A DNA stretch of 64,000 bases, taken from a virus. Taxonomy: Duplodnaviria; Caudoviricetes. The translations under genes and the position numbers were made by a program. Shown one piece after another: positions 10,079 through 53,267 of the stretch. The notes beneath the pieces are model-generated. The model saw only the letters and a list, made by a program, of their open reading frames with translations, ran no database searches and had not been told where the DNA came from. How positions within the stretch are numbered: position 1 is the stretch's first letter; each line of letters opens with the position of its first letter. The stretch spans positions 128,001-192,000 of the IMG/VR virus record IMGVR_UViG_3300021399_000099, one strand, 5' to 3'.

Positions 10079-11008
10079 TTACTTAAGGTTGTCAATCCCG
10101 TTTTCGGCGTACCATTCGCGGAATTTCTTGTATTCCTCCTCGCCTACTTTGTTGATGGCCACCTGCAAGTCGTTGTAATCGCAGTGCTTAATCTTGACGA
10201 TAATCCGCTTGCCGCGAGGGTCCTTGATAGGAACGACCGGTCTGGCTACAATGCCTTCCTCAAGATAGTCGGGGTTTGAAACATCCGGCACGAGGGTCTT
10301 AAATCCCTTCTTAACCATCTCTTCTGCCTCCTCAATGGTCATCTGGCCAATGTAGGGTGCAACTGTGAGACCAAGTTTCTCGGCATAGTCGTTCAGCATA
10401 TCAATGGGAACCCACCAACCCTGCACACAGATGTCGAAGATGGAGAAACGGTTCTTATCCTTGTCATAGTTGCCGCCAGACTGAATCTTCTTACCGAAGA
10501 ACTCACCATAGATATAAACGGGAACCTCTTCTACGTGGATAACGCCATACTGTGGGTGTTCTCTGTATTCGTTGATGGTGATGGGGTTCGGGTCAGGGTC
10601 ACCAGCAGAAGAATCATACAAAAGAATCTGGTTCTTATCATTCATTACAGGAGCAAACTTAGCACTCTCAGGCGGGAACAGCTCAGCAAGAATGGGCTTA
10701 ATCCTTTCAATCTCAGCATCAAGGAATGCCTTCTGCCCGGTACCTACGATGTCAGCATTGTCAGTCTTGCCACCAGGGAAACATTCTCCAGTGGAAGGGA
10801 AATAAACAATCTTACTATTGGTACCGTCTATTTTACTAAAACAATCAAACTTCAAACCCTTGATGTATTCCATAAAATCGTCAGAGTATTCATCGACAAT
10901 GATTTTATTCATAAACACCTTCCAGTCCTTGTTAGGAAGAGTGACCTTTCCAAGATTTTGATATCTTTTATACAAAGTGTTGATTTTTGTGTAAGTTTGT
11001 GTCTTCAT
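10079..11008 (-). CDS. RNA ligase (Rnl2-like nucleotidyltransferase)
   Basis: KIDGTN (motif I), YGEFFG, FDI, EGIVARP, KIK. Confidence 0.8.
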   Translation of the reverse strand: MKTQTYTKINTLYKRYQNLGKVTLPNKDWKVFMNKIIVDEYSDDFMEYIKGLKFDCFSKIDGTNSKIVYFPSTGECFPGGKTDNADIVGTGQKAFLDAEIERIKPILAELFPPESAKFAPVMNDKNQILLYDSSAGDPDPNPITINEYREHPQYGVIHVEEVPVYIYGEFFGKKIQSGGNYDKDKNRFSIFDICVQGWWVPIDMLNDYAEKLGLTVAPYIGQMTIEEAEEMVKKGFKTLVPDVSNPDYLEEGIVARPVVPIKDPRGKRIIVKIKHCDYNDLQVAINKVGEEEYKKFREWYAENGIDNLK

Positions 11009-18946: not shown

Positions 18947-19783
18947 TTAAGGATTTAATAAAATTTCTTCGTTATTATCTACTGCATCAAGGTCCGTGAT
19001 GGTATATTTATAAAAGCACGTCGTCTTGTTCGGGGTCTCAACGAATTCAAAGCCACCCGTCTCAACATCATATAACACAAATCCGTGGCCAGAAACCGTT
19101 TCACCGTAGTTTTTCTGCTTAAGACTTGAACAATACACGATATTCGTTCCATTGCCCGGGATTACTTGCTGTTTATGTATATGTCCGGCAATCACAAAAT
19201 CCGTACCATCGAATAGATTGACATTTAACGCGTTCTCGGAAACCATATTGGTAGGTGTTGTGGCCCCGTTTATTTCGCCGTGAATGAGACCGATATATTT
19301 CACATTGCTATCTTGCCTTGTCTCCTTGTCCGCTACGAACCCGGGCTTTTCAAAACTGGTAAATGTTGAATAAAGGCACCACACCACATTATCGTCCTTT
19401 ACAAACCCAGACTTATATCCAAACTCCATATCCAGGTATCTTGTGTGCTTGAAAGTCGCCATTTCAAATATTGGAGTTATGCTGTCCATCTTTGAAAGGT
19501 TTTGCAGGTTAAGGTCGTGGTTTCCGGCGATTACAATGGTGGGGCATATATCATCAAGCTCCTGTAAGAACCAGTATCCGGCAAGAAGCCCCTCATTTGA
19601 TATCGTTATCTTATCATCAAAGAGGTCTCCCCCGACTACAATCCTTACATATTCTGGACCTCCGGCTTCTTCCACAATCTTCTTTGCCTGACCGAAAAAT
19701 GTCTGTGCAACATCTTTTAAGTCATCCAGCCCCTTAAAATTAGGGATATGAATATCAGCTATGCCTATTATCTTCTTTATCAT
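18947..19783 (-). CDS. Mre11/SbcD-like (gp47-like) nuclease
   Basis: ADIH, GGDLFD, AGNHD, GHIHK, YGE..GHG. Confidence 0.75.
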   Translation of the reverse strand: MIKKIIGIADIHIPNFKGLDDLKDVAQTFFGQAKKIVEEAGGPEYVRIVVGGDLFDDKITISNEGLLAGYWFLQELDDICPTIVIAGNHDLNLQNLSKMDSITPIFEMATFKHTRYLDMEFGYKSGFVKDDNVVWCLYSTFTSFEKPGFVADKETRQDSNVKYIGLIHGEINGATTPTNMVSENALNVNLFDGTDFVIAGHIHKQQVIPGNGTNIVYCSSLKQKNYGETVSGHGFVLYDVETGGFEFVETPNKTTCFYKYTITDLDAVDNNEEILLNP

Positions 19784-34434: not shown

Positions 34435-34507
34435 GTGCCAGATACAGGATTCGAACCCGCATATCAACGTTTTAGGGACGCCCGCTTTACCAATCAGCTA
34501 ATCTGGC
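34435..34507 (-). tRNA. putative amber suppressor tRNA (anticodon CUA)
   Basis: full cloverleaf; anticodon arm GGCGT-CCCTAAA-ACGTT; C33 also seen in this phage's Gly(UCC) and Arg(CCU) tRNAs. Confidence 0.7.
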
Positions 34508-38883: not shown

Positions 38884-39409
38884 TGCCCAAGATGGGAGTC
38901 GAACCCATACGGCCTTTCAGGCCAAGGGATTTTACGTACCACCATAGTTTTCGCTACCAAAACAACTTTGGACATACGGGTTGGATTTTCAAGGCTTTTA
39001 CACCCCCAGGTTGTTTTGTTTGTGGTCTGGACTCTATCTTAACCATATTGAAATCTAGCTAGATACCTACAATGTAACTATGTCGTAACTGTGTTTTCAT
39101 TTTACAGCTTGCTTCCATAATATCAAGCAACTCAGCAATTTCAACTTAGGTTCCTCCTGTATAGTCTCTACACACTGTCTATTATTAATCCAAATGCTTT
39201 CACATGCAATGCAGAAGTATTTTTCCATTTGGATTATTTTAACATTGGCTCGGTATTAGCATATTAGAATTATTTACTCAAGGGATTTTACAATCCTATT
39301 CCAACTTAGCTTTCACCGAATTAGAGAGGTTCTACATCCAAGGTTTCCCCTGGTGCAACCCAAATGCTTTTTGCAGAGTCCCTCGTGTCTACCATTTCAC
39401 CACTCGGGC
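38884..39409 (-). tRNA. tRNA-Leu(UAA) split by group I intron
   Basis: exons 39377-39409 and 38884-38934 join to AGGGA-CTTAAAA-TCCCT. Confidence 0.88.
38935..39376 (-). mobile_element. group I intron (442 nt, no ORF)
   Basis: follows exon U, ends in G; R element TAGAGACTA and S element AAGATAGAGTCC. Confidence 0.85.
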
Positions 39410-39414
39410 ACTTG

Positions 39415-39514
39415 TAGCGGGTTTGGGAGTCGAACCCAATATCCTGAGGTTATGAGCCTTAGATGATAGCGGACTTGCTGTTATGCGAAGCCCTATCCGT
39501 TTCACTCCCCCGCG
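39415..39514 (-). tRNA. tRNA-Met(CAU), initiator-like, with extended D-loop hairpin
   Basis: loop CTCATAA; about 25-nt insert containing ACAGCAAG. Confidence 0.7.
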
Positions 39515-39604: not shown

Positions 39605-39967
39605 ATATATTAAAAAATGCTTCTACTGCATCGCTGCGACTGAGGAACCCCGGCTTTACGAGGATTGCATTACTATTGGGAATCTCTTCCTTTACATAGT
39701 TTTACCCACCTGTTGGCAAGGCGCTTCTGTTGTGGCTTATGGATTATACCCACAATCTCAAGATACACCGGCAACCCGACACTTTGTGGAACGGTTTCAT
39801 ATTACATTGGCGTACGTACGATAACCAATGCTATTACCCAGTATCACTTGGCAAGGTCCTACTCTAAAATAGGACAGAAGCACTTGGACCCCCGGGACGG
39901 TTACACTCCGCCTTGCTCCCAGTAAAATCCGGGGCTTCATAAACAAAAAGCCTCCGGGGGATGTATC

Positions 39968-40084
39968 AGGAAACAATTCAATGTTTTAATCCGCTAAACT
40001 AACGAGTGAGCCATTCTCGTGCCGGATTCGAACCGACGACTCTTCTTTTAGATAGAAAAATTGAAAAACTGCTGTGCGTTTCCT
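39968..40084 (-). ncRNA. circularly permuted tRNA-like RNA with GGAAAC-N3-CAGCA module
   Basis: order: module, anticodon arm (CTA), T-arm, loop-closed acceptor, D-arm, GTTTCC. Confidence 0.65.
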
Positions 40085-40097
40085 TGTTTTTGGCTCT

Positions 40098-40174
40098 TGG
40101 CGGTGCGTATGGGACTCGAACCCATGACCTTCGGCGTGACAGGCCGACATTCTAGCCAGCTGAACTAACGCACC
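40098..40174 (-). tRNA. tRNA-Asp(GUC)
   Basis: cloverleaf, CCA encoded. Confidence 0.92.
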
Positions 40175-40271
40175 AGCAAAATAAAGAGCATTAACTTCCG
40201 GCCTTTGACTTGCTCGCTAACAGGCATTATCACCGTCCAGGTATCCTGACACCGCAGAGGTTGCTTTCTTG

Positions 40272-40342
40272 AGCGGGTAAGCAGAATCGAACTGCCCTCC
40301 TTAGCTTGGGAAGCTAATGCACTGCCACTGTGCTATACCCGC
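40272..40342 (-). tRNA. tRNA-Gly(CCC)
   Basis: cloverleaf. Confidence 0.88.
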
Positions 40343-40659
40343 GATACGATTTAAGGCTAGCTTCGCGAACCGTTTGTATCTTCACGTCATTTACATTAAC
40401 GAGGGATTCGTGCGTTTCCCGGTATCCCCACCGCCACGGAATGTCACCATCCGGGTTATACTCATTTGTCCCTTCTCATATAGTCCGGGAAACCTATTTA
40501 ATAGGCCGAGTATATTAAGAGCCATATCAGTTGTTGCAACCCTGATATGTTGTTACCGACGTGCGACCACCAATTGTTAACACTGCCTTTTACTTTGAGG
40601 GTTCCCTGATTACACTGAGCTCTTATGTACTTATGCGGGAACTCTTTCGGTATCTCTTG

Positions 40660-40734
40660 TGGGCAGTGAGAGATTCGAACTCCCGAATCATCTGAATGTA
40701 AATCAGAGGTCCTAAACCGCTAGACGAACTGCCC
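40660..40734 (-). tRNA. tRNA-Val(UAC)
   Basis: loop TTTACAT. Confidence 0.8.
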
Positions 40735-40964
40735 TTTTTACACCCATATTTCCTTCATGTCGTCACTGGCATCTGCACGGGTGTATCTTTATTTGTGCAG
40801 TACTAACCCTGTTATCACCCCTTTCGTAGCCCGTGCGCCCTATATTTGGTTAATGACGCCGTTCTCACACGATACTCATAATAACTTTTAACCCCAGACC
40901 ACATTGCACGTTGCCCAAATCCGCAATGGTTCTCCCGGGGTGGGAAAGGAAATCGGACAAGACG

Positions 40965-41050
40965 TGAGTCAGGATGGATTCGAACCAACGACCCTTGCGG
41001 TTACTATGCTAAGCATTTTCCGCTGCTCTCCCACTCTGAGCTACTGACTC
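40965..41050 (-). ncRNA. tRNA-like RNA with 19-nt anticodon loop
   Basis: normal acceptor, D and T arms; loop AAAATGCTTAGCATAGTAA. Confidence 0.65.
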
Positions 41051-41234
41051 AAAAATAGCATAGTAATCATTTCTTCATCAGGTGTTTCCACTCTGATTAA
41101 ACCCTGGTAATTCCAGACCGGTGCTGACACACAGACAGGTGGTTTTATCTCCGGAGACCAATCCTGAAAGGTTCATTGACTTCGGTGCAGCCTTACTATT
41201 TTTACCGGAGTGATATCAAGTTCCGGTGCTATTG

Positions 41235-41306
41235 TAGCGGGAGAGGGATTCGAACCCACGGCCTCCAGGTTATGAGCCTGACGAGCTACCTCTGCTCTAC
41301 CCCGCG
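41235..41306 (-). tRNA. tRNA-Met(CAU), initiator-like
   Basis: C1 mismatch, loop CTCATAA. Confidence 0.85.
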
Positions 41307-41312
41307 ATGTTG

Positions 41313-41386
41313 TTGCGCAGGAAGGACTCGAACCCCCGACCTCCAGCTTATGAGGCTGGCTAGCTACCAACTGCTATCACCGCGCA
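41313..41386 (-). tRNA. tRNA-Met(CAU)
   Basis: loop CTCATAA. Confidence 0.8.
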
Positions 41387-41444
41387 ATGTCTTTCTATTA
41401 TTATACAAAAACTATACCAAACTAACAAATTTTTGTAAAAATTG

Positions 41445-41573
41445 TTGCGAGTGGAGGAATCGGACCCCCTCTAGTCCCTTATGATGGAGTTTCGCTTGTA
41501 AAATTGCTGCCTGGTTTCATGTCTGAAATCGTTTGTTTGCTTTTTTACCGTGCTACCATTACACTAACTCGCA
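41445..41573 (-). ncRNA. tRNA-like RNA (CAU loop) with CAGCAA module inserted in anticodon stem
   Basis: GCGAGT/ACTCGC acceptor; insert TTTCAGACATGAAACCAGGCAGCAA. Confidence 0.6.
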
Positions 41574-41691
41574 ATGTTAGTCCCCCATGTCGCTGGAGGA
41601 CAGCCCACGCCACTTTACCTATAAGCGGTAACTACGAACTCGATAACGGATTAGTCGCCTCCGTCGGATTTCTAATGTACACTCATCCGAG

Positions 41692-41812
41692 AGCCGGTAG
41701 CTGGATTCGAACCAGCGACCCACGGGTTAAAAGCCATTGAGAACGTTGCTGTTGGTTTCCATGCCTGGAAGCACTTCATATACGTTGCTCTACCTGACTG
41801 AGCTATACCGGC
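41692..41812 (-). ncRNA. tRNA-Lys(UUU) with 47-nt CAGCAA-module insert at 29/30
   Basis: removing the insert restores ACGGG-CTTTTAA-CCCGT. Confidence 0.72.
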
Positions 41813-41824
41813 AAAATATTGTTG

Positions 41825-41940
41825 CTGGGGAAAGAGGAATCGGACCTCTGACTACGGCTCCCAAATGCATAACGTATCTGCTGTAAGCTTCCATTACTGG
41901 ACGCGTAAAATACGTTGTGTTGCCACTACACCATTCCCCA
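41825..41940 (-). ncRNA. tRNA-like RNA (UGG loop) with CAGCA-module insert
   Basis: same insertion point after ACG; TCCAGTAATGGAAGCTTACAGCAG. Confidence 0.62.
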
Positions 41941-42013
41941 AAAGTCATGGCCATTCTTCACATCAGTACCATTTCCACTGAACCTAAGGCGTAACTAATT
42001 GAATGACCATCTG

Positions 42014-42083
42014 TTCTGTTACAGGATTCGAACCTATCCCTCCCGCTTTACCAGCGAGCGAGCTGACCAATACACCAAACAGA
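42014..42083 (-). pseudogene. atypical tRNA (loop TGGTAAA)
   Basis: cloverleaf present, anticodon register ambiguous. Confidence 0.5.
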
Positions 42084-42190
42084 TTTTACGAAGTATCGTC
42101 CCTAATTATTACTCACCTGCACGGCTTTCTTGTTCAGTATTTTCCAACGCCACCTACTAACATTGTGCAGATGCTTTCAGAATTTACTTG

Positions 42191-42262
42191 AGCGGGTAAT
42201 CGGAATCGAACCGACATCCCAGGCTTGGAGGGCCTATGCACTAACCGTTGTGCTATACCCGC
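42191..42262 (-). tRNA. tRNA-Gly(UCC)
   Basis: loop CCTCCAA (C33). Confidence 0.85.
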
Positions 42263-42965
42263 ATAATGACCTTTTATGTACAATATCCCCAGAGGTCTAA
42301 CTGTGCCAACCTACGATTTGGGCTGCATATTTGACTTTCGTCAGGGATAACAGCATCTTCGTTCCCGCTGCAGTCGGGCTAAAATACAACCTTGCCAAGT
42401 CGCTTTTTACGGATTAGCAATAACCGTAACCTCGGTCCCCACAATATCGTAAGCGGGCCTGTCCCACACGTCCGACTCCGAAGAATAGCCACTCACATCC
42501 CACCACCTTGTTTCGACAATTATTAAGAAGTGCGAATGACTTATTAAGCCTCCTTCCTTTAATGTCAATCATGTGCCAAAGTCTTGTCCGCTATCACGGA
42601 AGGATACACACCGGTTATTGCATCCTGCTTGTGCTCACTTTTACGGATAAGTGAGAACCGTCTTGGAGCGGGCCCGGTGACCAGCCGGGGGTCATCCCGC
42701 ATATGCTTTCACGGAATTGCATTAACCGTATTACGCTCCTAATGCAATATTTTATAGAAAGACTAGGAAATCTTTCAACCTCCTTTCCGGCGAGGGACTG
42801 CACTTGTACTTGGTGCGGCTGCGTTATATTCCGTAGTGGTCAAGCACTGGGGCTTGCACCCACTTTTTACGGCCTTATTAAACAAACATCTTACAGCGGG
42901 CCCAGTTGGTTTCAGATATCGTTTAATTAACCCTCCCATGGCTTCGAATCCTCCATGGGTGTGCT

Positions 42966-43042
42966 TGGTCGGGATGAAAGGACTCGAACCTTCGACCCCC
43001 TGCTCCCAAAGCAGGTGTTCTAGCCAACTGAACTACATCCCG
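42966..43042 (-). tRNA. tRNA-Pro(UGG)
   Basis: cloverleaf, CCA encoded. Confidence 0.92.
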
Positions 43043-43341
43043 ATAATGCCAGTCTCTGTTTGCTTTCGGTAAAGGCTGGCAAAACTACCTTTTTCCATAG
43101 GAAGCTACTCTAGAACTCACTTCCAGCCAGGACTCCGGCCATTTCAGACTCAGGCGAGCGCGATAGTAGCATCCCGTTTGAGGAACCTCGTCTTTACGAT
43201 GAAAAGTTAAACTACACGGCAATCTCAAGTTATTGCCCCTCTGTCTCCATAACCGCTTTCGCCTCACGCCCATGGACATTCCTACGTGCTGATTGCCTTG
43301 CGAGGACAACCAAACCACCACCTCGTTTAACTTAAAAGTCC

Positions 43342-43474
43342 GGGAAACATTTTAACTTGGCAAGGAGGGGATTCGAACCCCTATTCCTCGTGAGGAACCC
43401 CGGTTTTCCGCGCCGGGTGCGTCTATCCTATTTCGCCACCCCGTCTTAGCTTTTATAGCTGCTGTTAGTTTCCC
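43342..43474 (-). ncRNA. Ser-like tRNA enclosed in GGGAAAC-N3-CAGCA...GTTTCCC module
   Basis: module stem extends the acceptor end; long variable arm. Confidence 0.6.
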
Positions 43475-43501
43475 TTAAATGCCTGTAAATCAATAAATTT
43501 G

Positions 43502-43871
43502 TGGAGCTGACGCGACTCGAACGCGTGTCTTCAGGCATACCAATACGCTTTCTACATGCTTATTTCGGCTTAAAATCCAATAATCAAGAGCCGAGCACAA
43601 CTTGATTATCTTTCTGAATCCAATCTTCCAGACCACTTTGTTTGCAATTACACTCCCATTGGGACGGATAACAAAGAAAACAGTCCCGAGAATGTTCGTC
43701 CCGACCCTGCCTTGGGGCCGATGGATTAAGCTAACTCACCTGGTGAATTAAGCAGCGAAAGAATACGCATAAGCGTCAACTATTTTTTTGAAGTTCTGAT
43801 TAAAGTGGTTTCCTCCAATCCACTGCATGCTTACGGACCGCATATATCTGAATCAAAACCAGAACAGCCCC
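43502..43871 (-). ncRNA. ssrA: tmRNA
   Basis: 5' GGGGCTG..TGGTTTTGA, 3' GTTCGAGTCGCGTCAGCTCCA; tag frame ...DAYAYSFAA-stop. Confidence 0.92.
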
Positions 43872-44015
43872 ATAAATAAAGCAACGTTGCCGAATCGAAC
43901 TTTATTGTGGTGCTCAATTTTTCCACACCACTCACCGCTTCGAGCTACTCTTTCTTGCGCTCTAAGACATATCCTCGGGTGTCGCAAGTGTCGTTTAAAC
44001 ACCAACATTGCTTTG

Positions 44016-44089
44016 TGGACCGGATGGGATTCGAACCCACAACAACTAGAATGCAAATCTAGCGCTCTACCAATTGGAGCTACCAGCCC
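44016..44089 (-). tRNA. tRNA-Ala(UGC)
   Basis: G3:U70, loop TTTGCAT. Confidence 0.88.
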
Positions 44090-44392
44090 ATAATGTGATT
44101 TTTGTCTCCATCAAATAGTTACTCATTGGTTATCCGGTTGCAACCGCACCTCAGACACTTGTCTTACCCGCACGGCCCTACTTCACTATTGACTTTAACC
44201 ATTCCTGAGTTTTTTAACCTTTCTAAACTCCTTTCATCGGCTATTCACCTGCCTACTCACTAAATATAGTTTTTAAGGAGTAACGTTACCTCTCCCTTAG
44301 TGCTCATTTGGCTGCGCAACCGTGGTCTCGCACATAGCCACCGATATTAACGCATATCTCCACGACGCGCTTTAAGGACGGCGTAATCCTTG

Positions 44393-44478
44393 CGGAGAGC
44401 GGAGGTGTCGAACCCCATACGTTTCACCGTACGAATAGTTTTCAAGACTACCTTCGGAGCCGTCCGAATTCACTCTCC
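44393..44478 (-). tRNA. tRNA-Ser(UGA)
   Basis: long variable arm. Confidence 0.82.
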
Positions 44479-45405
44479 AAGATTGTTTCGTTTTCTATAG
44501 TCAGACATTGCGTGTTTTCCAACCCCAAAATGTTTTGCTATACTTTTCCACGTTAGTCCAGTTTCCCTAAGTTTTATTACTTCGGCTTTTGAAATATTAT
44601 CAGTTTTTCTTTTTATATGTTCTTCTTTAATTTTTCTACCCTTTACCCACCCATTTTTAACATATTCTGCGAGGTCTTCCTTTTTTATTTTTAGGTTTTT
44701 TACGCCATTAGTAATCCAACATGTACCGTACTGTGAATTTTTAACACCAATTTGGTCGCCGTTTGCTCTGTGCGAATTTGACATCTTTTCTTTTGTTAAC
44801 TCGGAATGGTTTCTTCCCACCCAAACAGCTTTTAATTCCCCGTTTAAATATCTTTCATCATCAAGATTAACAGACATCGTATTGCCGCTCATATCATAAA
44901 CGGTTATTCTTCCTTTAGATTGATGAAGATACCTTTCTTGGTTATTTTTATATTCAGAGGTTTCAATAAGCTTATATTTTTCCTCTTCGGTGTCAAAAAC
45001 TGCGATTTTTCCTTTAGAAAAGGGAACATATTTTCCGGAAAGATAATCTTCATCATCCGGCTTAATCCTATAAAAAACACCATTTTCGTCTCTAACCAAG
45101 ATTGTTCCGGTGGTGACACCAAAATCACCACCAATTTTTAAGTTATAACAATTGGTATCCAAAACACAAGATTCGGTCACTACTTCATTTTCATATTCGG
45201 ATGCCTGCTCTCGTGTTTTAAAATATTTTAGGATTGTCTTTTTAAAATTTTCCTTACCAAACTGTCTATACGCCCTTTTCAATCTCCTTCCAGACCCCAT
45301 ATAGCCATCCTCAATGTCGTTTGTTGAGTGTATCCCAAAATAATAATTTCCGTTTAACTGGTTTTCAATCTTATAAAAATAATGATATTTGTAATCACGT
45401 TCCAT
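44470..45405 (-). CDS. GIY-YIG (Seg-like) homing endonuclease in tRNA array
   Basis: YFYKIEN..NGNYYFGIHS...GYMGSG, YNLKIGG, NUMOD-like repeats. Confidence 0.85.
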   Translation of the reverse strand: MERDYKYHYFYKIENQLNGNYYFGIHSTNDIEDGYMGSGRRLKRAYRQFGKENFKKTILKYFKTREQASEYENEVVTESCVLDTNCYNLKIGGDFGVTTGTILVRDENGVFYRIKPDDEDYLSGKYVPFSKGKIAVFDTEEEKYKLIETSEYKNNQERYLHQSKGRITVYDMSGNTMSVNLDDERYLNGELKAVWVGRNHSELTKEKMSNSHRANGDQIGVKNSQYGTCWITNGVKNLKIKKEDLAEYVKNGWVKGRKIKEEHIKRKTDNISKAEVIKLRETGLTWKSIAKHFGVGKHAMSDYRKRNNLGE

Positions 45406-45471
45406 ATGTTCGTATTTATAATATAAATATAACGAACACGCGAAACCATGTAAATATTTTTCAAAAAAAAC

Positions 45472-45538
45472 GGGAAACGGTTGTTGTTTTCAAAGCCAAA
45501 AATTGAATATTAACGTTAAAACTTGCTGTGTGTTTCCC
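45472..45538 (-). ncRNA. minimal GGGAAAC-N3-CAGCAA module RNA
   Basis: terminal stem GGGAAAC/GTTTCCC. Confidence 0.6.
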
Positions 45539-45675
45539 TTATGTTTCTAATTACCACTATTCCCTTCTGGATTTCGTTATCCACTTTGGTCAGTACTGGG
45601 AAATCGGACATCCTGACTTTGGTGCGGAATCTGGAATTGCACCGCTCCTACTTTCCTGATTTTATGGTAATTACG

Positions 45676-45759
45676 TGCGGCAGGTGAGACTCGAACTCAC
45701 ACGGGAATAATGCCCACCAGTCCCTCAAACTGGCCTGGCTACCATTACAGCACTGCCGC
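45676..45759 (-). tRNA. tRNA-Leu(GAG)
   Basis: long variable arm. Confidence 0.85.
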
Positions 45760-45829
45760 ATAATGTCTGTTTCTTATCCTTTTCGGTCACCCTTAATAAG
45801 TGTTGAACAGACCTAAAGTCTCCCTAGTA

Positions 45830-45952
45830 TGCTGAGAGTTGGATTCGAACCAACGCGTGTCAATTCCGTCGCACCAGAATTGTGATAGCGGGCTTCCCCA
45901 TAGTTGCGATTCCGGGGTCCTCCGCTGTGTTCAGCCACTTCACTACCTCAGC
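45830..45952 (-). ncRNA. tRNA-like RNA with expanded anticodon and variable arms
   Basis: intact acceptor, D and T arms; loops TCGCA and TGCGA complementary. Confidence 0.6.
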
Positions 45953-46066
45953 CTTCGAGACCATATTTTTACCCGGCTGGTTAGACCGGTCCGACTTGTC
46001 AATGAACTTGCTTTATTAATATACAAAAACTGTGCCAAAAACACAAATTTTTTGCAAAAAATTTTG

Positions 46067-46147
46067 TCCGGATGGCTGGATTCGAACCAGCGAGGCGTTT
46101 GCGGGGCCTTATGAGAGCCCTCCGATACCAGCTTCGGGCACATCCGG
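46067..46147 (-). tRNA. tRNA with CAU anticodon (Met/Ile2) and long variable arm
   Basis: GGGCT-CTCATAA-GGCCC. Confidence 0.72.
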
Positions 46148-46154
46148 ATGCCTA

Positions 46155-46469
46155 TTACTTAAAAAGACCTTCGATTTTTCCTTTTATTTTCTTTATATCA
46201 TCCTCAATTTCCTGAATAAGGTCATAATCGGAATCTTCCTTGTCAATTTCGGCTATTACTTTTTCAATGCCAATTATTTCACCCTTAAATATTTCGAGTG
46301 TTTCCGGGTCGTTTTTAGCGTTATCGTCGTTATTAATTTGTTTGATATGCTTTTCTATGTCCGAAAAACATGCCCTCATCTTATGAAGTTCATGATGCTT
46401 TGTTTCCTTATAAGTCACATAACACCCTAGAACAATTAGCAATACAAATATTAAAATTATCCAAAACAT
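46155..46469 (-). CDS. hypothetical membrane-anchored protein
   Basis: N-terminal TM helix, coiled coil. Confidence 0.6.
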   Translation of the reverse strand: MFWIILIFVLLIVLGCYVTYKETKHHELHKMRACFSDIEKHIKQINNDDNAKNDPETLEIFKGEIIGIEKVIAEIDKEDSDYDLIQEIEDDIKKIKGKIEGLFK

Positions 46470-46486
46470 AATACTATAATTTTTAA

Positions 46487-47587
46487 TTAGTTAGCAGGGG
46501 TGCAAGGATTCAAACCCTGACCAACGGTTTTTAGTATTTCCGGCATATATTTCTTAATGAAATCCATAAGCGTTTGTCTGTTAATACCGGTAGTTTTACT
46601 TAATTTAGTTAGCCACCCTCTTTCACTAGTATCTATTCCCGCCTCTACTATTATTTTTTTTCTATTTCTTATTTTTTCTTTATCTTCTTCCTTTTTTTTA
46701 ATTTGGCTATCTTTTCTCCTCTTTACTGACTCAATAGCCTTTTCTTTCGTATAACAAGTTGCATAAAAATCTGGGTCGTTTTTCATTAAAAATTCCCTAA
46801 CATGTAATTGGGTCATTCCAACCAATTCGCCAGCTTTCTTTACCCACCCCCATTTTTGAAAATCTATCCCACTATTTTTTATAGTTTCAAGTTTTTCGGT
46901 TGTTGTTTTTATTTTTTCCTCTTCTTTTTGAATTTTTTTATTTAGCTTTTCTTCAACCTCTTTTATTATTTCCTTTGCTGTTCTTTTCTTTGCATTTTTC
47001 CCGCAATAGTTATCAGTTAAAGCATGACAGTTTGGGCATAAAATCTGTAGGTTTTCAATAGAATTGTTGGTTCTGTCTCCGTCTATGTGATGAACTTGTA
47101 GTGGTATCGGTTCCCCTTCCCATTCAACTCTTCCACATCTTTCGCACACCCTTTCTTTAATCCCAAACTTAAACAAGTAACCAGATATTCTGCTACTTGA
47201 TATTAAGCTTTCCTTTTTAAAAATATCTTCTTCTTTTAAAGAGTTTTTATGCTGGTTGCTTTTCCCCTTTCTATTAAAATGAGTGGTATCTAACCCATAT
47301 TTTTTGGCGATTTTTTTAAATTCTAAATATGTATTACTTCCTACACTCAAATTAAGCTCTTTTGCCACCTCTGAAAAATTGTTTTTTACTTTAATCAGTT
47401 CACAAACCGCTTTCTCCCTTTTTTCTTTTTCTTTTTGGTTTTGCGTAATGTGTTTTTGGTCTTCCATGAATTTTGGCGCAAGAACCAGTTTAATATATCT
47501 TTTATCCTCGTTTAAAATTTTAGAAATTTCTTCCCTTGTTTTTCCTTCATCATATAAGGCATATACCTTTTTCATTCGCTCGTTCAT
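46487..47587 (-). CDS. HNH homing endonuclease
   Basis: CERCG...LQVHHIDGDRTNN..ENLQILCPNCH. Confidence 0.88.
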   Translation of the reverse strand: MNERMKKVYALYDEGKTREEISKILNEDKRYIKLVLAPKFMEDQKHITQNQKEKEKREKAVCELIKVKNNFSEVAKELNLSVGSNTYLEFKKIAKKYGLDTTHFNRKGKSNQHKNSLKEEDIFKKESLISSSRISGYLFKFGIKERVCERCGRVEWEGEPIPLQVHHIDGDRTNNSIENLQILCPNCHALTDNYCGKNAKKRTAKEIIKEVEEKLNKKIQKEEEKIKTTTEKLETIKNSGIDFQKWGWVKKAGELVGMTQLHVREFLMKNDPDFYATCYTKEKAIESVKRRKDSQIKKKEEDKEKIRNRKKIIVEAGIDTSERGWLTKLSKTTGINRQTLMDFIKKYMPEILKTVGQGLNPCTPAN

Positions 47588-47662
47588 CTCTTTTTATTTT
47601 TGCTATATATAAATATATACGAACTTGGAAAAAAAATCAAGGTTTTAATTTTTTTTTACCTG

Positions 47663-47747
47663 CAAGAGTGGGAGGATTCGAACCCCCGAGGACATTACTC
47701 CTTCTGGTTTTGGAGACCAGTGCCATCAACCACTCGGCCACACTCTT
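47663..47747 (-). tRNA. tRNA-Trp(CCA) with long variable arm
   Basis: CTGGT-CTCCAAA-ACCAG. Confidence 0.82.
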
Positions 47748-47756
47748 ATATTTTAC

Positions 47757-47821
47757 GGGAAACTGTTTTTAATGTCGGCGTTACAGGCTGATTTTCAAAA
47801 GTAACTTGCTGTCTGTTTCCC
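47757..47821 (-). ncRNA. module RNA carrying a Tyr(GUA) anticodon stem-loop
   Basis: GGGAAACAGACAGCAAG...TCAGC-CTGTAAC-GCCGA...GTTTCCC. Confidence 0.65.
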
Positions 47822-47831
47822 TATATTTTAT

Positions 47832-48302
47832 TTATCTTCTTGCCTTATAGTCGGCCATCGTAGTTGATAGCGGGCAGAGCGTCTTCCATCTACATTCAAA
47901 TCCCTCTGACTCAACCCATCCTTTAGCCGCACTAAAGGCTACGTTAGACCCAGCATCCTCATCCGGACTAATGTCAATGTCAATATACTTAACAAAGATG
48001 CCAGAATCCCTCATTAACTTTGCTACATCAAGAGAAGCCATTGTTTCGTCCATCATTCTGTCAAAAATCTCAGACTTCTTATATCTTCTACTTCTCCAAG
48101 TCCTGGAAATAACGTGCGCCCCATGTCCATGCTCACCATCGCCACTGTCGTAAAGGGCGACAATTGTAGCAAAACAAGTGTGCCCGCCGTGGCATTGAGA
48201 GTCCGTACTAACCATAATCTGGATATTACGGTGTGTGTGGCAGTAGTTGCCTACATAAGTTACCAGGTCTATTTTCTCCCCATTAAATTTCTTGAACTCC
48301 AT
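47832..48302 (-). CDS. RNase H-like YkuK/DUF458 family protein
   Basis: VSTDSQ, GHGAH, RMMDE..SL, IDIDI, ADY. Confidence 0.75.
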   Translation of the reverse strand: MEFKKFNGEKIDLVTYVGNYCHTHRNIQIMVSTDSQCHGGHTCFATIVALYDSGDGEHGHGAHVISRTWRSRRYKKSEIFDRMMDETMASLDVAKLMRDSGIFVKYIDIDISPDEDAGSNVAFSAAKGWVESEGFECRWKTLCPLSTTMADYKARR

Positions 48303-48342
48303 ACTTCATACTCCTTAACTTTTATAAATATTATCCTTTTTG

Positions 48343-48707
48343 CGGAAGACTGAGGTGCCGACCCCCACACCATACAGTGCGCTTCGCTTTCAAGACGAGC
48401 CCCAAGGCCGCTCAGGTTAATCTTCCATATTTGTGCGGATAGCGGAGGTCCCGACCCCCACCCCAAAAGGAGCGTACCGCTTTCGAGACGGACTTGAGCC
48501 CCGCCCAATTCACTATCCGAGGAAGAGACTGGTACCGACCCAGACCCGTTTTTTAGACGAGCAGACACCTTTCCAGAGTGCTCCGGTAACCCCGACCGGT
48601 TCCTCTTCCAATATGGCGGTGAGGGAGGGGCTCGAACCCTCGCGCCGGGTTTTAACCGACCTAACGGTTTAGCAAACCGTCCCCTTCACCAACTTGGGTA
48701 CCTCACC
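48343..48707 (-). tRNA. four tandem tRNA-Ser: UGA 48343-48426, CGA 48436-48518, GGA 48520-48609, GCU 48614-48707
   Basis: long variable arms; anticodons read directly. Confidence 0.8.
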
Positions 48708-48711
48708 ATAG

Positions 48712-48782
48712 TTGGGATATTTAGATTCGAACTAAAATAACAACTTTCAGAGAGTTGCATGTTACCATTACATCATACCCCA
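48712..48782 (-). tRNA. tRNA-Gln(CUG)
   Basis: loop CTCTGAA. Confidence 0.82.
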
Positions 48783-48790
48783 ATATTTAC

Positions 48791-48855
48791 AGGAAACATT
48801 TGTTCAGAATGTTAGATTAAAAGTCTAGTCCTTAAAAACTTGCTGTATGTTTCCT
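48791..48855 (-). ncRNA. module RNA carrying a Lys(UUU) anticodon stem-loop
   Basis: AGGAAACATACAGCAAG...TAGA-CTTTTAA-TCTA...GTTTCCT. Confidence 0.68.
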
Positions 48856-48857
48856 TG

Positions 48858-48929
48858 AGCGGGTAGCCAGAATCGAACTGGCGTTTCCAGCATGGCAAGC
48901 TGGCGCACTAGCCACTGTGCTATACCCGC
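48858..48929 (-). tRNA. tRNA-Gly(GCC)
   Basis: cloverleaf. Confidence 0.88.
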
Positions 48930-52844: not shown

Positions 52845-52852
52845 ATTTAATG

Positions 52853-53267
52853 TGCGTCCAATGGGACTCGAACCCATAACGCCTTACGGACCCCTCTGAT
52901 TAAAAGTCAGATGCGCTACCAATTGCGCCATGGACGCCTAATTTTCAAAGAACTTTTCTAATATATTACAAAAGCCATGCCAAACTTTTTCAGTTCTTAT
53001 AATTTTTTTGTCGGGACAGAAAGATTCGAACTTTCATTGCTACTGTATCAGAGTAGTATCCTAAGACCGTTTAGATGATGTCCCGTTATGTTTCAAATAA
53101 CTTTTGTGGTCCCGGTGGGATTCGAACCCACAACCCGACGGGTAAGAGCCGCCTACGCTAATCCAGTTGCGCCACGAGACCATATTTATTTGTGCCCCCG
53201 GTGGGACTCGAACCCACAATCACGCACCTTAAAAGGGTGGAGCTTTAACCAATTCAGCTACAAGGGC
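52853..53267 (-). tRNA. tRNA-Lys(UUU, long V arm) 52853-52937, Ile(GAU) 53011-53085, Lys(CUU) 53107-53181, Lys(UUU) 53193-53267
   Basis: cloverleaves; anticodons read directly. Confidence 0.85.

What the first reader, a model, noticed from the sequence alone, without database searches (positions are those of the whole stretch)
39968..48855. Family of tRNA mimics sharing a GGAAAC-N3-CAGCA(A/G)...GTTTCC module in four topologies
Seen at least 8 times on the minus strand. (1) As terminal stem of about 65-nt RNAs holding a lone anticodon stem-loop: Lys UUU at 48791, Tyr GUA at 47757, weak or Gln-like at 45472. (2) Inserted as a hairpin into the 5' strand of the anticodon stem of whole tRNAs: 41445, 41692 (Lys UUU), 41825. 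(3) As the ends of a circularly permuted tRNA: 39968. (4) Wrapped around a Ser-like tRNA: 43342. ACAGCAAG also occurs in the D-loop insert at 39415. A constant protein-binding-like stem plus a variable tRNA domain recalls bacterial Y RNA (YrlA)/Ro60 RNPs. Lys(UUU) and Tyr(GUA) are known targets of antiphage anticodon nucleases (PrrC and PARIS; retron PtuAB). Inference: an RNP system presenting tRNA decoys or repair substrates.
Basis: partly seen in the sequence, partly recalled or inferred. Interest (0 to 1): 0.87.

Follow-up and report, generated by a model that had tools for sequence, protein, structure and literature searches.

The report
Phage Y-like RNAs presenting tRNA parts
A huge rumen phage carries eight small RNA genes that share one conserved "handle" joined to tRNA pieces, and this handle travels across many phages with a gene for a Ro60-like ring protein, so they look like an uncatalogued kind of Y RNA, probably involved in tRNA damage, repair or quality control.

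Summary
Eight minus-strand copies of a clamp helix followed by NN-ACAGCA(A/G) lie in the phage's 20-kb tRNA array. The helix covaries strongly in 74 distinct relatives.

The Y-RNA/Ro60 reading is supported by genomic association, not by binding data.
- The phage encodes a DUF2828+DUF7788 protein whose confident model matches Ro60 structures over its full length.
- Within 10 kb of 78 such genes, 71 handle matches were found, all on the gene's strand and often within 1 kb.
- 40 of 50 phage records with the gene carry the handle, including 21 of 22 near-complete ones. Only 1 of 48 control records without the gene does.

The handle matches no Rfam family and differs from the YrlA motif.

Anticodon-like loops recur in relatives, Lys UUU most often. 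Handle-tRNA fusions usually break at anticodon-stem position 29/30.

Metatranscriptome contigs contain these RNAs with the inserts retained.

The decoy or repair function is untested.

This scan noted the same handle earlier on other DNA (e1-5309353, e1-1959749). I found no paper describing it.

Verdict: a new variant of a known kind, the Ro60/Y RNA ribonucleoprotein.

The parts
48788..48857 (-). Short handle RNA. Clamp helix AGGAAACAU/AUGUUUCCU, ACAGCAA at 48846-48840, interior hairpin UAGA-CUUUUAA-UCUA (Lys UUU anticodon-loop mimic).
   Evidence: Covariance model R1 scores 77.2 bits. Fold, anticodon-loop scan. A weak tRNA-model alignment covers only the acceptor-like stem and anticodon arm. 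A metatranscriptome contig of a close relative covers 48780-48900.
47754..47823 (-). Short handle RNA. GGGAAAC/GUUUCCC helix, ACAGCAA at 47812-47806, interior CUGUAAC loop (Tyr GUA-like) on a stem with one mismatch.
   Evidence: R1 scores 65.3 bits. Sequence. The minimum-energy fold prefers GUUAC/GUAAC pairing instead, so this anticodon loop is less certain.
45469..45540 (-). Short handle RNA. GGGAAAC/GUUUCCC helix, ACAGCAA, interior hairpin without a clear anticodon-type loop.
   Evidence: R1 scores 60.1 bits. Fold z-score -1.98. No anticodon-like hairpin by the criteria.
43339..43476 (-). Open handle (GGGAAAC...GUUUCCC, ACAGCAG) wrapped around a whole Ser(GGA)-like tRNA at 43358-43445.
   Evidence: ARAGORN tRNA-Ser gga. 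Rfam tRNA 30.5 bits. R1 16.1 bits, E 0.38. Exact motif match.
41825..41940 (-). tRNA-like gene X. It has an acceptor stem, a D arm and a T arm with loop UCCGAUU. A handle hairpin GCGUCCA-GUAA-UGGAAGC plus UU-ACAGCAG (41904-41878) is inserted at anticodon-stem position 29/30. The anticodon loop has 8 nt.
   Evidence: Sequence. Fold shows acceptor stem, T arm and a GNRA-capped hairpin. Hairpin scan.
41692..41812 (-). Complete tRNA-Lys(UUU) with a handle hairpin GCUUCCA-GGCA-UGGAAAC plus CA-ACAGCAA (41772-41746) inserted between positions 29 and 30 of the anticodon stem.
   Evidence: Rfam tRNA 48.8 bits over 121 nt. Fold. A metatranscriptome contig covers 41604-41812 with the insert kept. Plain Lys(UUU) genes also exist at 52852-52937 and 53192-53267.
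41445..41572 (-). Met(CAU)-like tRNA with a degenerate handle hairpin GAUUUCA-GACA-UGAAACC plus AG-GCAGCAA inserted at position 29/30.
   Evidence: Sequence. Fold. Motif list. An RNA contig covers 41510-41673 and includes part of the insert.
39965..40086 (-). Open handle enclosing a circularly permuted tRNA. Order: anticodon arm (anticodon CUA), T arm, acceptor stem closed by a loop, D arm.
   Evidence: R1 25 bits. The core matches the tRNA-like part of Rfam YrlA at 21.6 bits, gathering score 69. An identical 178-nt RNA contig 39906-40083 appears in two studies and ends on the first G of GGAAAC.
39415..39514 (-). Met(CAU)-like tRNA with an enlarged D region that contains ACAGCAAG (39481-39474). 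It has no canonical clamp helix, so membership is doubtful.
   Evidence: Sequence. Motif list. Not called by ARAGORN or Rfam.

Best explanation
These are Y-RNA-like small RNAs of a huge rumen phage.

Shared handle. The handle is a 7-9 bp clamp helix followed on the 5' strand by an unpaired, invariant ACAGCAA and then an A/U-rich second helix. It is most likely the docking site for the phage's own Ro60-like ring protein (542 aa, DUF2828 + DUF7788). That gene lies about 100 kb away on the same strand, at G000:C1 about 66.7-68.3 kb.

Variable part. It is a tRNA piece held at a fixed place next to the handle. It can be a lone anticodon stem-loop, a circularly permuted tRNA with its acceptor stem closed by a loop, a whole tRNA wrapped by the handle, or an ordinary tRNA carrying the handle as a GNRA-capped side arm at anticodon-stem position 29/30.

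What is shown: the helix is real and conserved, the protein has the Ro60 fold, and the RNA and the gene are linked across phages.

What is inferred: the protein binds the handle, and the particle thereby ties a Ro60-like ring to tRNA shapes, above all anticodon loops. The likely purpose is to engage tRNA-directed enzymes during infection. It may act as a decoy for host anticodon nucleases, or as a scaffold for surveillance or repair of cleaved tRNAs. Which of these applies is open.
For: RNA
- 8 copies, all on one strand, against 0.49 expected by chance.
- In 74 distinct members, 89% of helix cells pair, against 39-47% when the partners are slid. 8 of 9 pairs show changes on both sides. 0 of 500 shuffles reach the observed covariation score.
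- ACAGCAA is invariant while the stem letters vary.

Protein
- DUF7788 at 52.7 bits and a weak DUF2828 match; PHROG 850 'RNA-binding protein' at E 3e-47.
- The MIDAS motif DxSxS is invariant in 56 relatives.
- AlphaFold model: pLDDT 90.8, pTM 0.89.
- The top 13 PDB matches are all Ro60/TROVE structures over about 550 aligned columns, including the Thermus phage phiLo Ro60.

Linkage
- 71 of 71 model hits (E <= 1) around 78 such genes lie on the gene's strand, in 30 loci. Many are within 1 kb upstream or downstream of the gene, in lineages down to about 34% protein identity.
- 40 of 50 records with the gene carry the handle, and 21 of 22 of those at least 90% complete.
- Among control records, 1 of 48 without the gene has a hit. 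The single control record that has the gene has 6 hits.
- G000, G001 and G004 all have both the RNA and the gene.

tRNA parts
- Anticodon-type hairpins occur in 20 of 61 short members, against 3.25 in shuffles (maximum 12). By that scan CUUUUAA (Lys UUU) occurs 7 times, in about 5 lineages. Counting by eye also 3-bp or mismatched stems that the scan missed, Cys GCA occurs 3 times and Tyr GUA and Thr UGU twice each.
- Permuted tRNAs in other phages break at position 29/30, the same place as the window's inserts (read by eye).

Precedent
- YrlA Y RNAs pair a Ro60-binding stem with a permuted tRNA-like domain and are encoded next to Ro60 in bacteria and phages (PMC4201824).
- Phage phiLo Ro60 binds stem-bulge-stem Y-like RNAs encoded upstream of its gene (PMC12135203).

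Expression hint
- RNA-library contigs cover the non-coding RNA stretches, while the homing-endonuclease ORF bins have no depth in three of the four RNA runs laid.
Against: - No binding experiment or structure exists. The link is correlation, and part of it could come from shared synteny of the Ro60-like gene with tRNA and translation modules in related huge phages.
- In this phage the gene is about 100 kb from the RNAs.
- The handle motif differs from the known Ro60-binding motifs (GNCGAA/CGAA in bacteria and phages, the bulged helix in animals).
- The protein does not reach Pfam's cut-off for DUF2828 (22.5 against 29 bits) and does not match Pfam TROVE.
- One complete 33-kb phage has a weak handle hit but no such gene.
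- Only a third of short members have a clean anticodon-type loop.
- The phage also encodes an RNA ligase family protein, which leaves room for a splicing or repair reading.
Confidence: 0.68

Rival explanations
1. The handle is a splicing and circularisation signal, a bacterial-virus counterpart of the archaeal/eukaryal bulge-helix-bulge motif. An endonuclease would cut on both sides of the handle arm. A ligase (the phage RNA ligase or host RtcB) would join the ends. This would remove the insert from split tRNAs and circularise permuted ones, which RNase P and RNase Z would then open into normal tRNAs.
For: - The same element marks both inserts and permuted tRNAs, at one precise position (29/30).
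- Permuted tRNAs of red algae are processed this way (established knowledge; reviewed in PMC3400036).
- The phage encodes an RNA ligase family protein at 10079-11008.
Against: - Most family members are short RNAs with no tRNA body to splice.
- One copy wraps an already complete tRNA.
- The handle is linked to a Ro60-like gene, not to an endonuclease.
- No RtcB in the record.
- RNA contigs retain the inserts, and no joint removing an insert was seen. Contigs cannot exclude rare spliced forms.
- Plain copies of tRNA-Lys(UUU), Met(CAU) and the CUA suppressor exist in the array.
Confidence: 0.12
2. The handle binds some other factor, and its link to the Ro60-like gene reflects shared residence in the tRNA and translation gene modules of related phages. 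Candidates are a host or phage tRNA-processing enzyme, an RRM protein of the kind that binds Dictyostelium Class I RNA, or the ribosome.
For: - In the huge-phage clade the Ro60-like gene sits among IF3, TyrRS, DnaJ and sigma-factor genes, so part of the co-occurrence comes from kinship.
- In this phage the gene and the RNAs are 100 kb apart.
- A Class I RNA with a similar layout binds an RRM protein directly (PMC7919456).
Against: - All 71 hits are co-oriented with the gene, and RNAs immediately adjacent to the gene are seen in lineages with only 34-44% protein identity.
- A complete 420-kb phage without the gene has no handle.
Confidence: 0.1
3. They are working translation adaptors. The short forms would be minimal, armless tRNAs using the clamp helix as an acceptor stem. 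The insert forms would be tRNAs with an extra arm. All would be charged and used on the ribosome.
For: - The Rfam tRNA model aligns 48791-48854 as acceptor stem plus anticodon arm (14.3 bits, E 0.88).
- The insert forms have complete cloverleaves with free acceptor ends.
Against: - ACAGCAA is invariant whatever the anticodon.
- The same helix encloses whole or permuted tRNAs, where it cannot be an acceptor stem.
- No discriminator-CCA context is present.
- Many members lack an anticodon loop.
- By inference, an arm leaving the anticodon stem at 29/30 would hinder decoding.
Confidence: 0.05
4. The handle is a repeated punctuation, processing or mobile element of tRNA arrays, with no partner-specific role. 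It could be an RNase site, a terminator-like hairpin or a MITE.
For: It often starts 2-6 nt after the 3' end of an upstream tRNA, and it is repeated in arrays.
Against: - It keeps an invariant unpaired 7-mer beside a covarying stem.
- It encloses functional-looking tRNA parts in register.
- It occurs singly next to the Ro60-like gene in small phages that have no array there.
- It is strictly strand-specific.
Confidence: 0.05

Closest known systems
YrlA-type bacterial and phage Y RNAs with Ro60/Rsr (Rfam RF02553; Chen et al. 2014, PMC4201824)
   Same: - A 5'-3' stem with an unpaired conserved motif, joined to a tRNA-like domain in permuted order (T arm, acceptor stem closed by a loop, D arm).
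- Encoded near, and on the same strand as, a Ro60-fold ring protein with a vWA/MIDAS domain.
- Several RNAs per genome.
- The window's permuted copy aligns to the YrlA tRNA-like core.
   Different: - The handle motif is ACAGCAA, not GNCGAAN0-1G.
- No copy reaches the Rfam gathering score (21.6-23 bits against 69).
- The protein belongs to DUF2828/DUF7788 and does not match Pfam TROVE.
- These RNAs often carry a true anticodon loop, or are whole tRNAs with free acceptor ends. YrlA lacks an anticodon arm.
Thermus phage phiLo Ro60 with Yrl1/Yrl2 (PMC12135203; PDB 9KOP, 9L5Y)
   Same: - A phage-encoded Ro60-fold protein; it is the top structural match, E 3.5e-8.
- Stem-bulge-stem small RNAs encoded upstream of the gene.
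- Proposed role in conflict with the host.
   Different: - Only about 15% sequence identity.
- The phiLo RNAs use a CGAA bulge and have no reported tRNA or anticodon parts.
- Here there are up to eight RNAs, embedded in a tRNA array.
Class I RNAs of dictyostelid amoebae (Kjellin et al. 2021, PMC7919456)
   Same: - RNAs of about 60 nt with a short stem joining the 5' and 3' ends.
- An unpaired, conserved 11-nt motif directly after the 5' stem strand, and a variable remainder.
- The paper gives near-invariant T, C, C, A, A at motif positions 3, 6, 9, 10 and 11. The phage consensus C-U-W-A-C-A-G-C-A-A has the same letters at those positions when aligned on its last A.
- From memory, the motif is CCUUACAGCAA.
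   Different: - Eukaryotic, with their own upstream promoter element.
- The known direct binder is an RRM protein; no Ro60-like partner is reported.
- No tRNA parts are reported.
- The full motif sequence could not be checked in the text held.
Permuted and intron-containing tRNA genes processed through the bulge-helix-bulge motif (red alga Cyanidioschyzon, archaea)
   Same: One RNA element marks both insertions and circular permutations of tRNA genes.
   Different: - There is no bulge-helix-bulge geometry.
- The position is 29/30 in the anticodon stem.
- Many copies have no tRNA body.
- No splicing endonuclease was looked for, and none is linked to the handle.
- The inserts are retained in RNA contigs.

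Membership tests
YrlA / bacterial Y RNA (Rfam RF02553) | Reaches the family's covariance-model gathering score (69 bits) | tested here: not met
   Best matches score 23 bits (41762-41864) and 21.6 bits (39980-40044). Only model positions 24-84, the tRNA-like core, are matched.
YrlA / bacterial Y RNA (Rfam RF02553) | Ro60-binding module with the conserved GNCGAAN0-1G motif (PMC4201824) | tested here: not met
   The invariant unpaired motif here is ACAGCAA. The aligned handles contain no GNCGAA.
YrlA / bacterial Y RNA (Rfam RF02553) | tRNA-like domain in the order T arm, closed acceptor stem, D arm | tested here: met
   Met for the permuted copies: 39965-40086 and L037, L033 and L073. Not applicable to the short copies.
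YrlA / bacterial Y RNA (Rfam RF02553) | Encoded near a Ro60 orthologue | tested here: inconclusive
   In many relatives the RNA lies within 1 kb of a Ro60-fold gene. In this phage the gene is about 100 kb away, and it is a DUF2828/DUF7788 protein, not a TROVE match.
Y RNA in the functional sense (small RNA bound by a Ro60-type ring protein) | Physical binding to the Ro60-type protein | not testable with these tools
   Only genomic association is available.
Ro60 / TROVE protein family (the partner protein) | HEAT-repeat ring plus vWA domain with a MIDAS motif | tested here: met
   Model pLDDT 90.8. Full-length Foldseek matches to 9KOP, 1YVR, 2I91, 9L5Y, 9NFA and 2NVO, E 3.5e-8 to 5.5e-5, TM 0.34-0.59. 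D324, S326 and S328 are invariant.
Ro60 / TROVE protein family (the partner protein) | Match to Pfam TROVE (PF05731) | tested here: not met
   No match in G000, G001 or G004. The protein matches DUF7788 and, weakly, DUF2828 and vWA_Ro60.
Bulge-helix-bulge introns and permuted tRNAs | Two 3-nt bulges separated by a 4-bp helix at the exon-intron borders | tested here: not met
   The borders are single-stranded spacers of about 8-10 nt flanking a 7-9 bp helix.
Bulge-helix-bulge introns and permuted tRNAs | Spliced or circularised products | tested here: inconclusive
   RNA contigs keep the inserts and show no joint removing one. Contigs cannot show that rare forms are absent.
Dictyostelid Class I RNA | Short terminal stem plus an 11-nt motif after the 5' strand, total length about 60 nt | tested here: inconclusive
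   The layout and the five near-invariant letters agree. The full motif was not verifiable in the text, and no Rfam model matched. The defining promoter element and the taxon do not apply.

The most novel reading that the evidence does not exclude
The clamp-helix/ACAGCAA handle defines a large, uncatalogued class of Y RNAs that serve the DUF2828/DUF7788 branch of Ro60-like proteins in phages and giant viruses. Its members hold out anticodon loops (Lys UUU, Tyr GUA, Cys GCA, Thr UGU, amber CUA) beside the ring protein. In this reading they act as bait or shield against host anticodon nucleases, or as a platform that captures and repairs cleaved tRNAs. The same handle in dictyostelid Class I RNAs would then point to a Ro60-like or related partner for those long-unexplained RNAs.
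Probability: 0.25. Interest if true: 0.9.

Novelty: new variant of a known kind. Interest (0 to 1): 0.72.

Why it matters
- Ro60/Y RNA particles are conserved from bacteria to humans, yet their purpose in bacteria and phages is still unclear.
- This would be a second, sequence-distinct kind of handle, tied to a mostly viral branch of Ro60-like proteins comprising about 2,700 clusters at 50% identity.
- The RNAs make the tRNA connection explicit. They carry real anticodon loops and even complete tRNAs, fused at one fixed position.
- That gives concrete reagents: one protein, eight RNAs and a 7-letter motif. With them one can test whether such particles act on tRNA-directed defence, tRNA repair or tRNA quality control during infection.
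- It explains a set of odd 'intron-containing' and permuted tRNA genes in huge-phage arrays that tRNA finders miss or miscall.
- If the resemblance to dictyostelid Class I RNAs is more than convergence, it offers a testable lead on their mechanism.

Tried and rejected
- Self-cleaving ribozyme. I compared the handle by eye with hammerhead, hairpin, twister, pistol, hatchet and HDV-like (theta) cores. Rfam scans at E up to 10 on the single elements gave no ribozyme or other family.
- 'Chain' reading. GGAAGC at 41892 is a perfect complement of GCTTCC at 41771, which could link tRNA X to tRNA-Lys. I set this aside because all three inserts form local hairpins capped by GNRA loops. It is not strictly excluded.
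- Exact 16-nt pattern scan of viral contigs. It returned mostly chance matches; only 6 of about 120 loci had the 3' strand. Those loci later served as a biased control.
- RtcB is absent from the record, but the record is only 61% complete.
- Megablast of the array against GenBank phages found only single conserved tRNAs.
- Brute-force un-permuting with ARAGORN gave noisy anticodon calls, because the A/U-rich spacers form spurious arms. The 29/30 break was therefore read by eye in L037, L033, L073 and L141.
- Literature searches for permuted tRNAs in phages, DUF2828 and the Class I motif string found no paper describing this handle.
- RNA runs. No cover of 47754-47823 or 45469-45540 in the four runs laid. 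The joint 45854-45947 and the other odd joints look like contigs of other organisms' tRNAs.
- Protein atlas. The family is mostly viral, with no information on amoebae.

Full report
**Setting**

The window is bases 128,001-192,000 of a 216,910-bp IMG/VR virus record, estimated 61% complete. Near-identical DNA is found in rumen and other animal-gut metagenomes of ten studies.

Between 34.4 and 55 kb the minus strand carries a roughly 20-kb array. It holds 47 ARAGORN tRNA genes and a tmRNA, a CUA suppressor tRNA among them. Rfam adds several long tRNA matches that contain inserts. Homing-endonuclease ORFs (HNH, GIY-YIG) and an RNase H-like ORF sit inside the array.

Yes. GGAAAC-N3-CAGCAR with up to one mismatch occurs 9 times, against 0.49 expected from shuffles. 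Seven matches are on the minus strand inside the finding, and a degenerate eighth copy is at 41504-41516.

The same module turned up in other phage contigs with the stem letters changed on both sides: GGGAAC/GTTCCC, GGAAGC/GCTTCC, GGAATC/GATTCC and GGAAAG/CTTTCC.

I built a covariance model (R1) from 12 short copies. It found 81 matches, 74 of them distinct, in the loci held. On that alignment:
- 89% of helix cells form standard pairs, against 39-47% when the partners are slid.
- 8 of 9 pairs show changes on both sides.
- No shuffle out of 500 reaches the observed covariation score.

That alignment is fitted to the model, so it leans somewhat towards the structure. The compensatory variants had already been seen by plain pattern search before any model existed.

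The consensus is A-A-[G-R-N-N-N-C-N-N]-ACAGCAA-N-UUU ... AA-[N-N-G-N-N-N-Y-C]-U-G. ACAGCAA is invariant and the stem letters are free.

**Anatomy in the window**

1. Three short RNAs of about 65-70 nt: 48788-48857, 47754-47823 and 45469-45540.
   - The first holds a clean UAGA-CUUUUAA-UCUA hairpin, a Lys UUU anticodon loop.
   - The second holds a CUGUAAC (Tyr GUA-like) loop on an imperfect stem.
   - The third holds no such loop.
2. Three tRNA genes in normal order carry the handle as a side arm: 41825-41940, 41692-41812 (Lys UUU) and 41445-41572 (Met CAU-like).
   - Each arm is a local 7-bp hairpin with one mismatch, closed by a GNRA tetraloop (GUAA, GGCA, GACA).
   - NN-ACAGCA follows each hairpin.
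   - Each arm is inserted between positions 29 and 30 of the anticodon stem.
3. 39965-40086 is an open handle around a circularly permuted tRNA.
   - The order is anticodon arm (anticodon CUA), T arm, acceptor stem closed by a loop, D arm.
   - Its core aligns to the tRNA-like part of the Rfam YrlA model at 21.6 bits.
4. 43339-43476 is an open handle around a whole Ser(GGA)-like tRNA.

The ACAGCAAG at 39474-39481 lies in a Met-like tRNA but has no clamp helix, so I leave it as doubtful.

**Relatives**

In other phages the open handle encloses permuted tRNAs: Thr UGU in L037, L033 and L073, Gly UCC in L073 and Met CAU in L141. Read by eye, these are broken at the same 29/30 position as the window's inserts.

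Hairpin-type handles capped by GATA also occur inside tRNA-like genes of distant lineages: L225, L195, L202, L203 and L227.

Among 61 distinct short members, 20 hold a hairpin of at least 4 bp with a 7-nt loop of the form Y-U-NNN-R-N. Shuffled interiors give 3.25 on average, 12 at most. By that scan CUUUUAA occurs seven times, in about five lineages. Counting by eye also stems of 3 bp or with a mismatch, which the scan missed, Cys GCA occurs three times and Tyr GUA and Thr UGU twice each.

**The partner**

Earlier notes of this scan on other genomes (e1-5309353, e1-1959749) claimed that a 'stem-NN-ACAGCAA' handle marks RNAs beside Ro60-like DUF2828 genes. I tested that claim here.

The phage has a 542-aa ORF (L149:292-1920:-, at G000:C1 about 66.7-68.3 kb, minus strand).
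- It matches DUF7788 at 52.7 bits and DUF2828 weakly at 22.5 bits.
- It matches PHROG 850 'RNA-binding protein' at E 3e-47.
- It does not match Pfam TROVE and has no sequence match in the PDB.
- About 2,670 clusters at 50% identity are related to it, mostly viral.
- Across 56 relatives the vWA MIDAS motif DxSxS is invariant.
- The AlphaFold model is confident, pLDDT 90.8 and pTM 0.89.
- Its 13 best PDB matches are all Ro60/TROVE structures aligned over about 550 columns. They include frog and human Ro60, Deinococcus Rsr and the Thermus phage phiLo Ro60.

It is therefore a Ro60-fold protein from a family separate from the canonical TROVE model.

**Association test**

Around 78 relatives of this gene in viral contigs (plus or minus 10 kb, 1.4 Mb in total) the model found 71 matches at E <= 1. 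All are on the strand of the gene, in 30 loci. At least 17 of those loci have an RNA within about 1 kb upstream or downstream of the gene, and some of them come from lineages with only 34-44% protein identity.

In whole records that encode the gene, 40 of 50 have a handle at E <= 0.01, and 21 of 22 of those at least 90% complete.

As a deliberately biased control I used 49 records picked only because they contain the 16-nt 5' motif by chance.
- One of them encodes the gene, and it has six handles.
- Of the 48 without the gene, one has a weak hit.
- A complete 420-kb phage among them has none.

The control is not matched for size or lineage, and related phages share both features by descent. 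Even so, the strand rule and the tight adjacency in distant lineages are hard to explain without a functional link. This arrangement, small RNAs encoded beside and co-oriented with the ring-protein gene, is how bacterial and phage Y RNAs were found (PMC4201824, PMC12135203).

**Expression**

Only assembled contigs of metatranscriptomes could be laid.
- Two studies give the same 178-nt RNA contig, 39906-40083. Its end falls exactly on the first G of GGAAAC of the permuted-tRNA element. This is a weak hint of a 5' end.
- Contigs cover 41604-41812 and 41510-41673 with the inserts in place.
- No joint removes an insert.
- In three of the four RNA runs the bins over the homing-endonuclease ORFs have no depth, while bins over tRNAs and other structured stretches do. 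That fits stable RNA rather than contaminating DNA.
- Contigs cannot show levels, strands or the absence of rare forms.

**How it most likely works**

Shown: a conserved clamp helix with an invariant unpaired 7-mer, a Ro60-fold protein, and their linkage.

Inferred: the protein binds the handle, as Ro60 binds the bulged stem of Y RNAs. The variable part places a tRNA shape, usually an anticodon loop 8-16 nt from the motif, next to the ring.

Several established facts make a role in the conflict over tRNAs the most economical reading:
- Ro60 rings thread the ends of damaged or misfolded RNAs, and Y RNAs act as gates and tethers (PMC4201824).
- The bacterial rsr-yrlA genes belong to an operon switched on by damaged tRNAs (abstract of PMC7790460).
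- Large phage tRNA sets are thought, from general knowledge, to offset host tRNA nucleases.

The particle could soak up anticodon nucleases, or it could capture cleaved tRNAs for degradation or for repair by the phage RNA ligase (window 10079-11008). I cannot tell which. The insert-bearing tRNAs keep free acceptor ends and might also be charged.

**Rivals**

- A splicing or circularisation signal explains the shared 29/30 position. It does not explain the many tRNA-less members, the wrapped complete tRNA, the retained inserts or the linkage to a Ro60-like gene.
- A different binding partner remains possible, since nothing here measures binding.
- Minimal tRNAs, and a mere punctuation or mobile element, fit poorly with an invariant unpaired motif beside a covarying stem.

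**Comparison with what is known**

It works like a YrlA-type Y RNA but fails two defining tests of that family, the GNCGAA motif and the Rfam score. Its protein is not a Pfam TROVE member. No Rfam family matches the handle, and I found no paper that describes it.

Its layout and motif also resemble the Class I RNAs of dictyostelid amoebae. The five near-invariant letters given in PMC7919456 agree with the phage consensus, but I could not verify the full motif string. That link stays a lead.

Because this scan already noted the same handle on other DNA, this window is a further and especially rich instance, not the first sighting.

**Verdict**

I class it as a new variant of a known kind.

Noticed in passing
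window 48340-48610 and 44393-44479 (minus strand): Three long-arm Ser-like tRNAs (anticodon loops CUUGAAA, CUCGAAA, CUUGAAA) have unusual T loops (GGGGUCGGNACCUC) and were missed by ARAGORN. The one at 44393-44479 passes the Rfam tRNA-Sec gathering score (49.5 against 47 bits), although its anticodon is UGA, not UCA.
   Followed up: no
window 39019-39386 (minus strand): Weak group I intron match (31.1 bits, gathering score 50, E 1.6e-4). It lies directly downstream of a Leu-like tRNA 5' part (39350-39410), so it may be an intron-split tRNA.
   Followed up: no
window 44100-44390, 40340-40590, 40740-40990, 42280-42960, 43060-43340 (minus strand): G+C-rich, apparently structured intergenic stretches between tRNAs, with no Rfam match. 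Several are covered by metatranscriptome contigs in three or four runs, for example 44106-44379 and 40367-40585. They may be unknown non-coding RNAs.
   Followed up: no
window 34435-34507 and 39965-40086: There are two CUA (amber-reading) anticodons, one on a plain tRNA and one on the permuted handle RNA. This suggests amber read-through or recoding matters to this phage. ORFs were nevertheless listed under the standard code without obvious trouble.
   Followed up: no
window 10079-11008 (minus strand): ORF of the RNA ligase family (PF09414, 50.8 bits). A metallophosphoesterase ORF lies at 18947-19783. Together they could be tRNA repair enzymes.
   Followed up: partly
window 41825-41940 and 41445-41572: Both insert-bearing tRNA-like genes have the T loop UCCGAUU, with C where the conserved pseudouridine-55 position would be, instead of UUCGAAU. 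The first also has an 8-nt anticodon loop, AUUUGGGA.
   Followed up: no
window 43499-43871 (minus strand): Phage-encoded one-piece tmRNA (106.7 bits) with tag peptide DAYAYSFAA. It lies directly upstream of the handle-wrapped Ser-like tRNA.
   Followed up: no
window 44470-45405, 46487-47587, 47832-48302 (minus strand): GIY-YIG and HNH homing-endonuclease ORFs and an RNase H-like (PF04308) ORF are embedded in the tRNA array. A tRNA 3' half-like sequence (ggtttgaatcc...) lies at the end of the HNH ORF, near 46500-46540.
   Followed up: no
L166, L168, L175, L176 and other loci around the Ro60-like gene: In the huge-phage clade the Ro60-like gene is flanked by genes for a sigma-70-type factor, DnaJ, IF3, tyrosyl-tRNA synthetase and NAD synthase. 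This is a translation and stress gene neighbourhood.
   Followed up: partly
L141:2236-2385 and L033:12794-12928 (upstream flanks): The acceptor 3' strand of the tRNA just upstream (GTTTTCC) is itself complementary to the 5' strand of the following handle (GGAAAC). This would allow an alternative hairpin across the tRNA-handle boundary.
   Followed up: no
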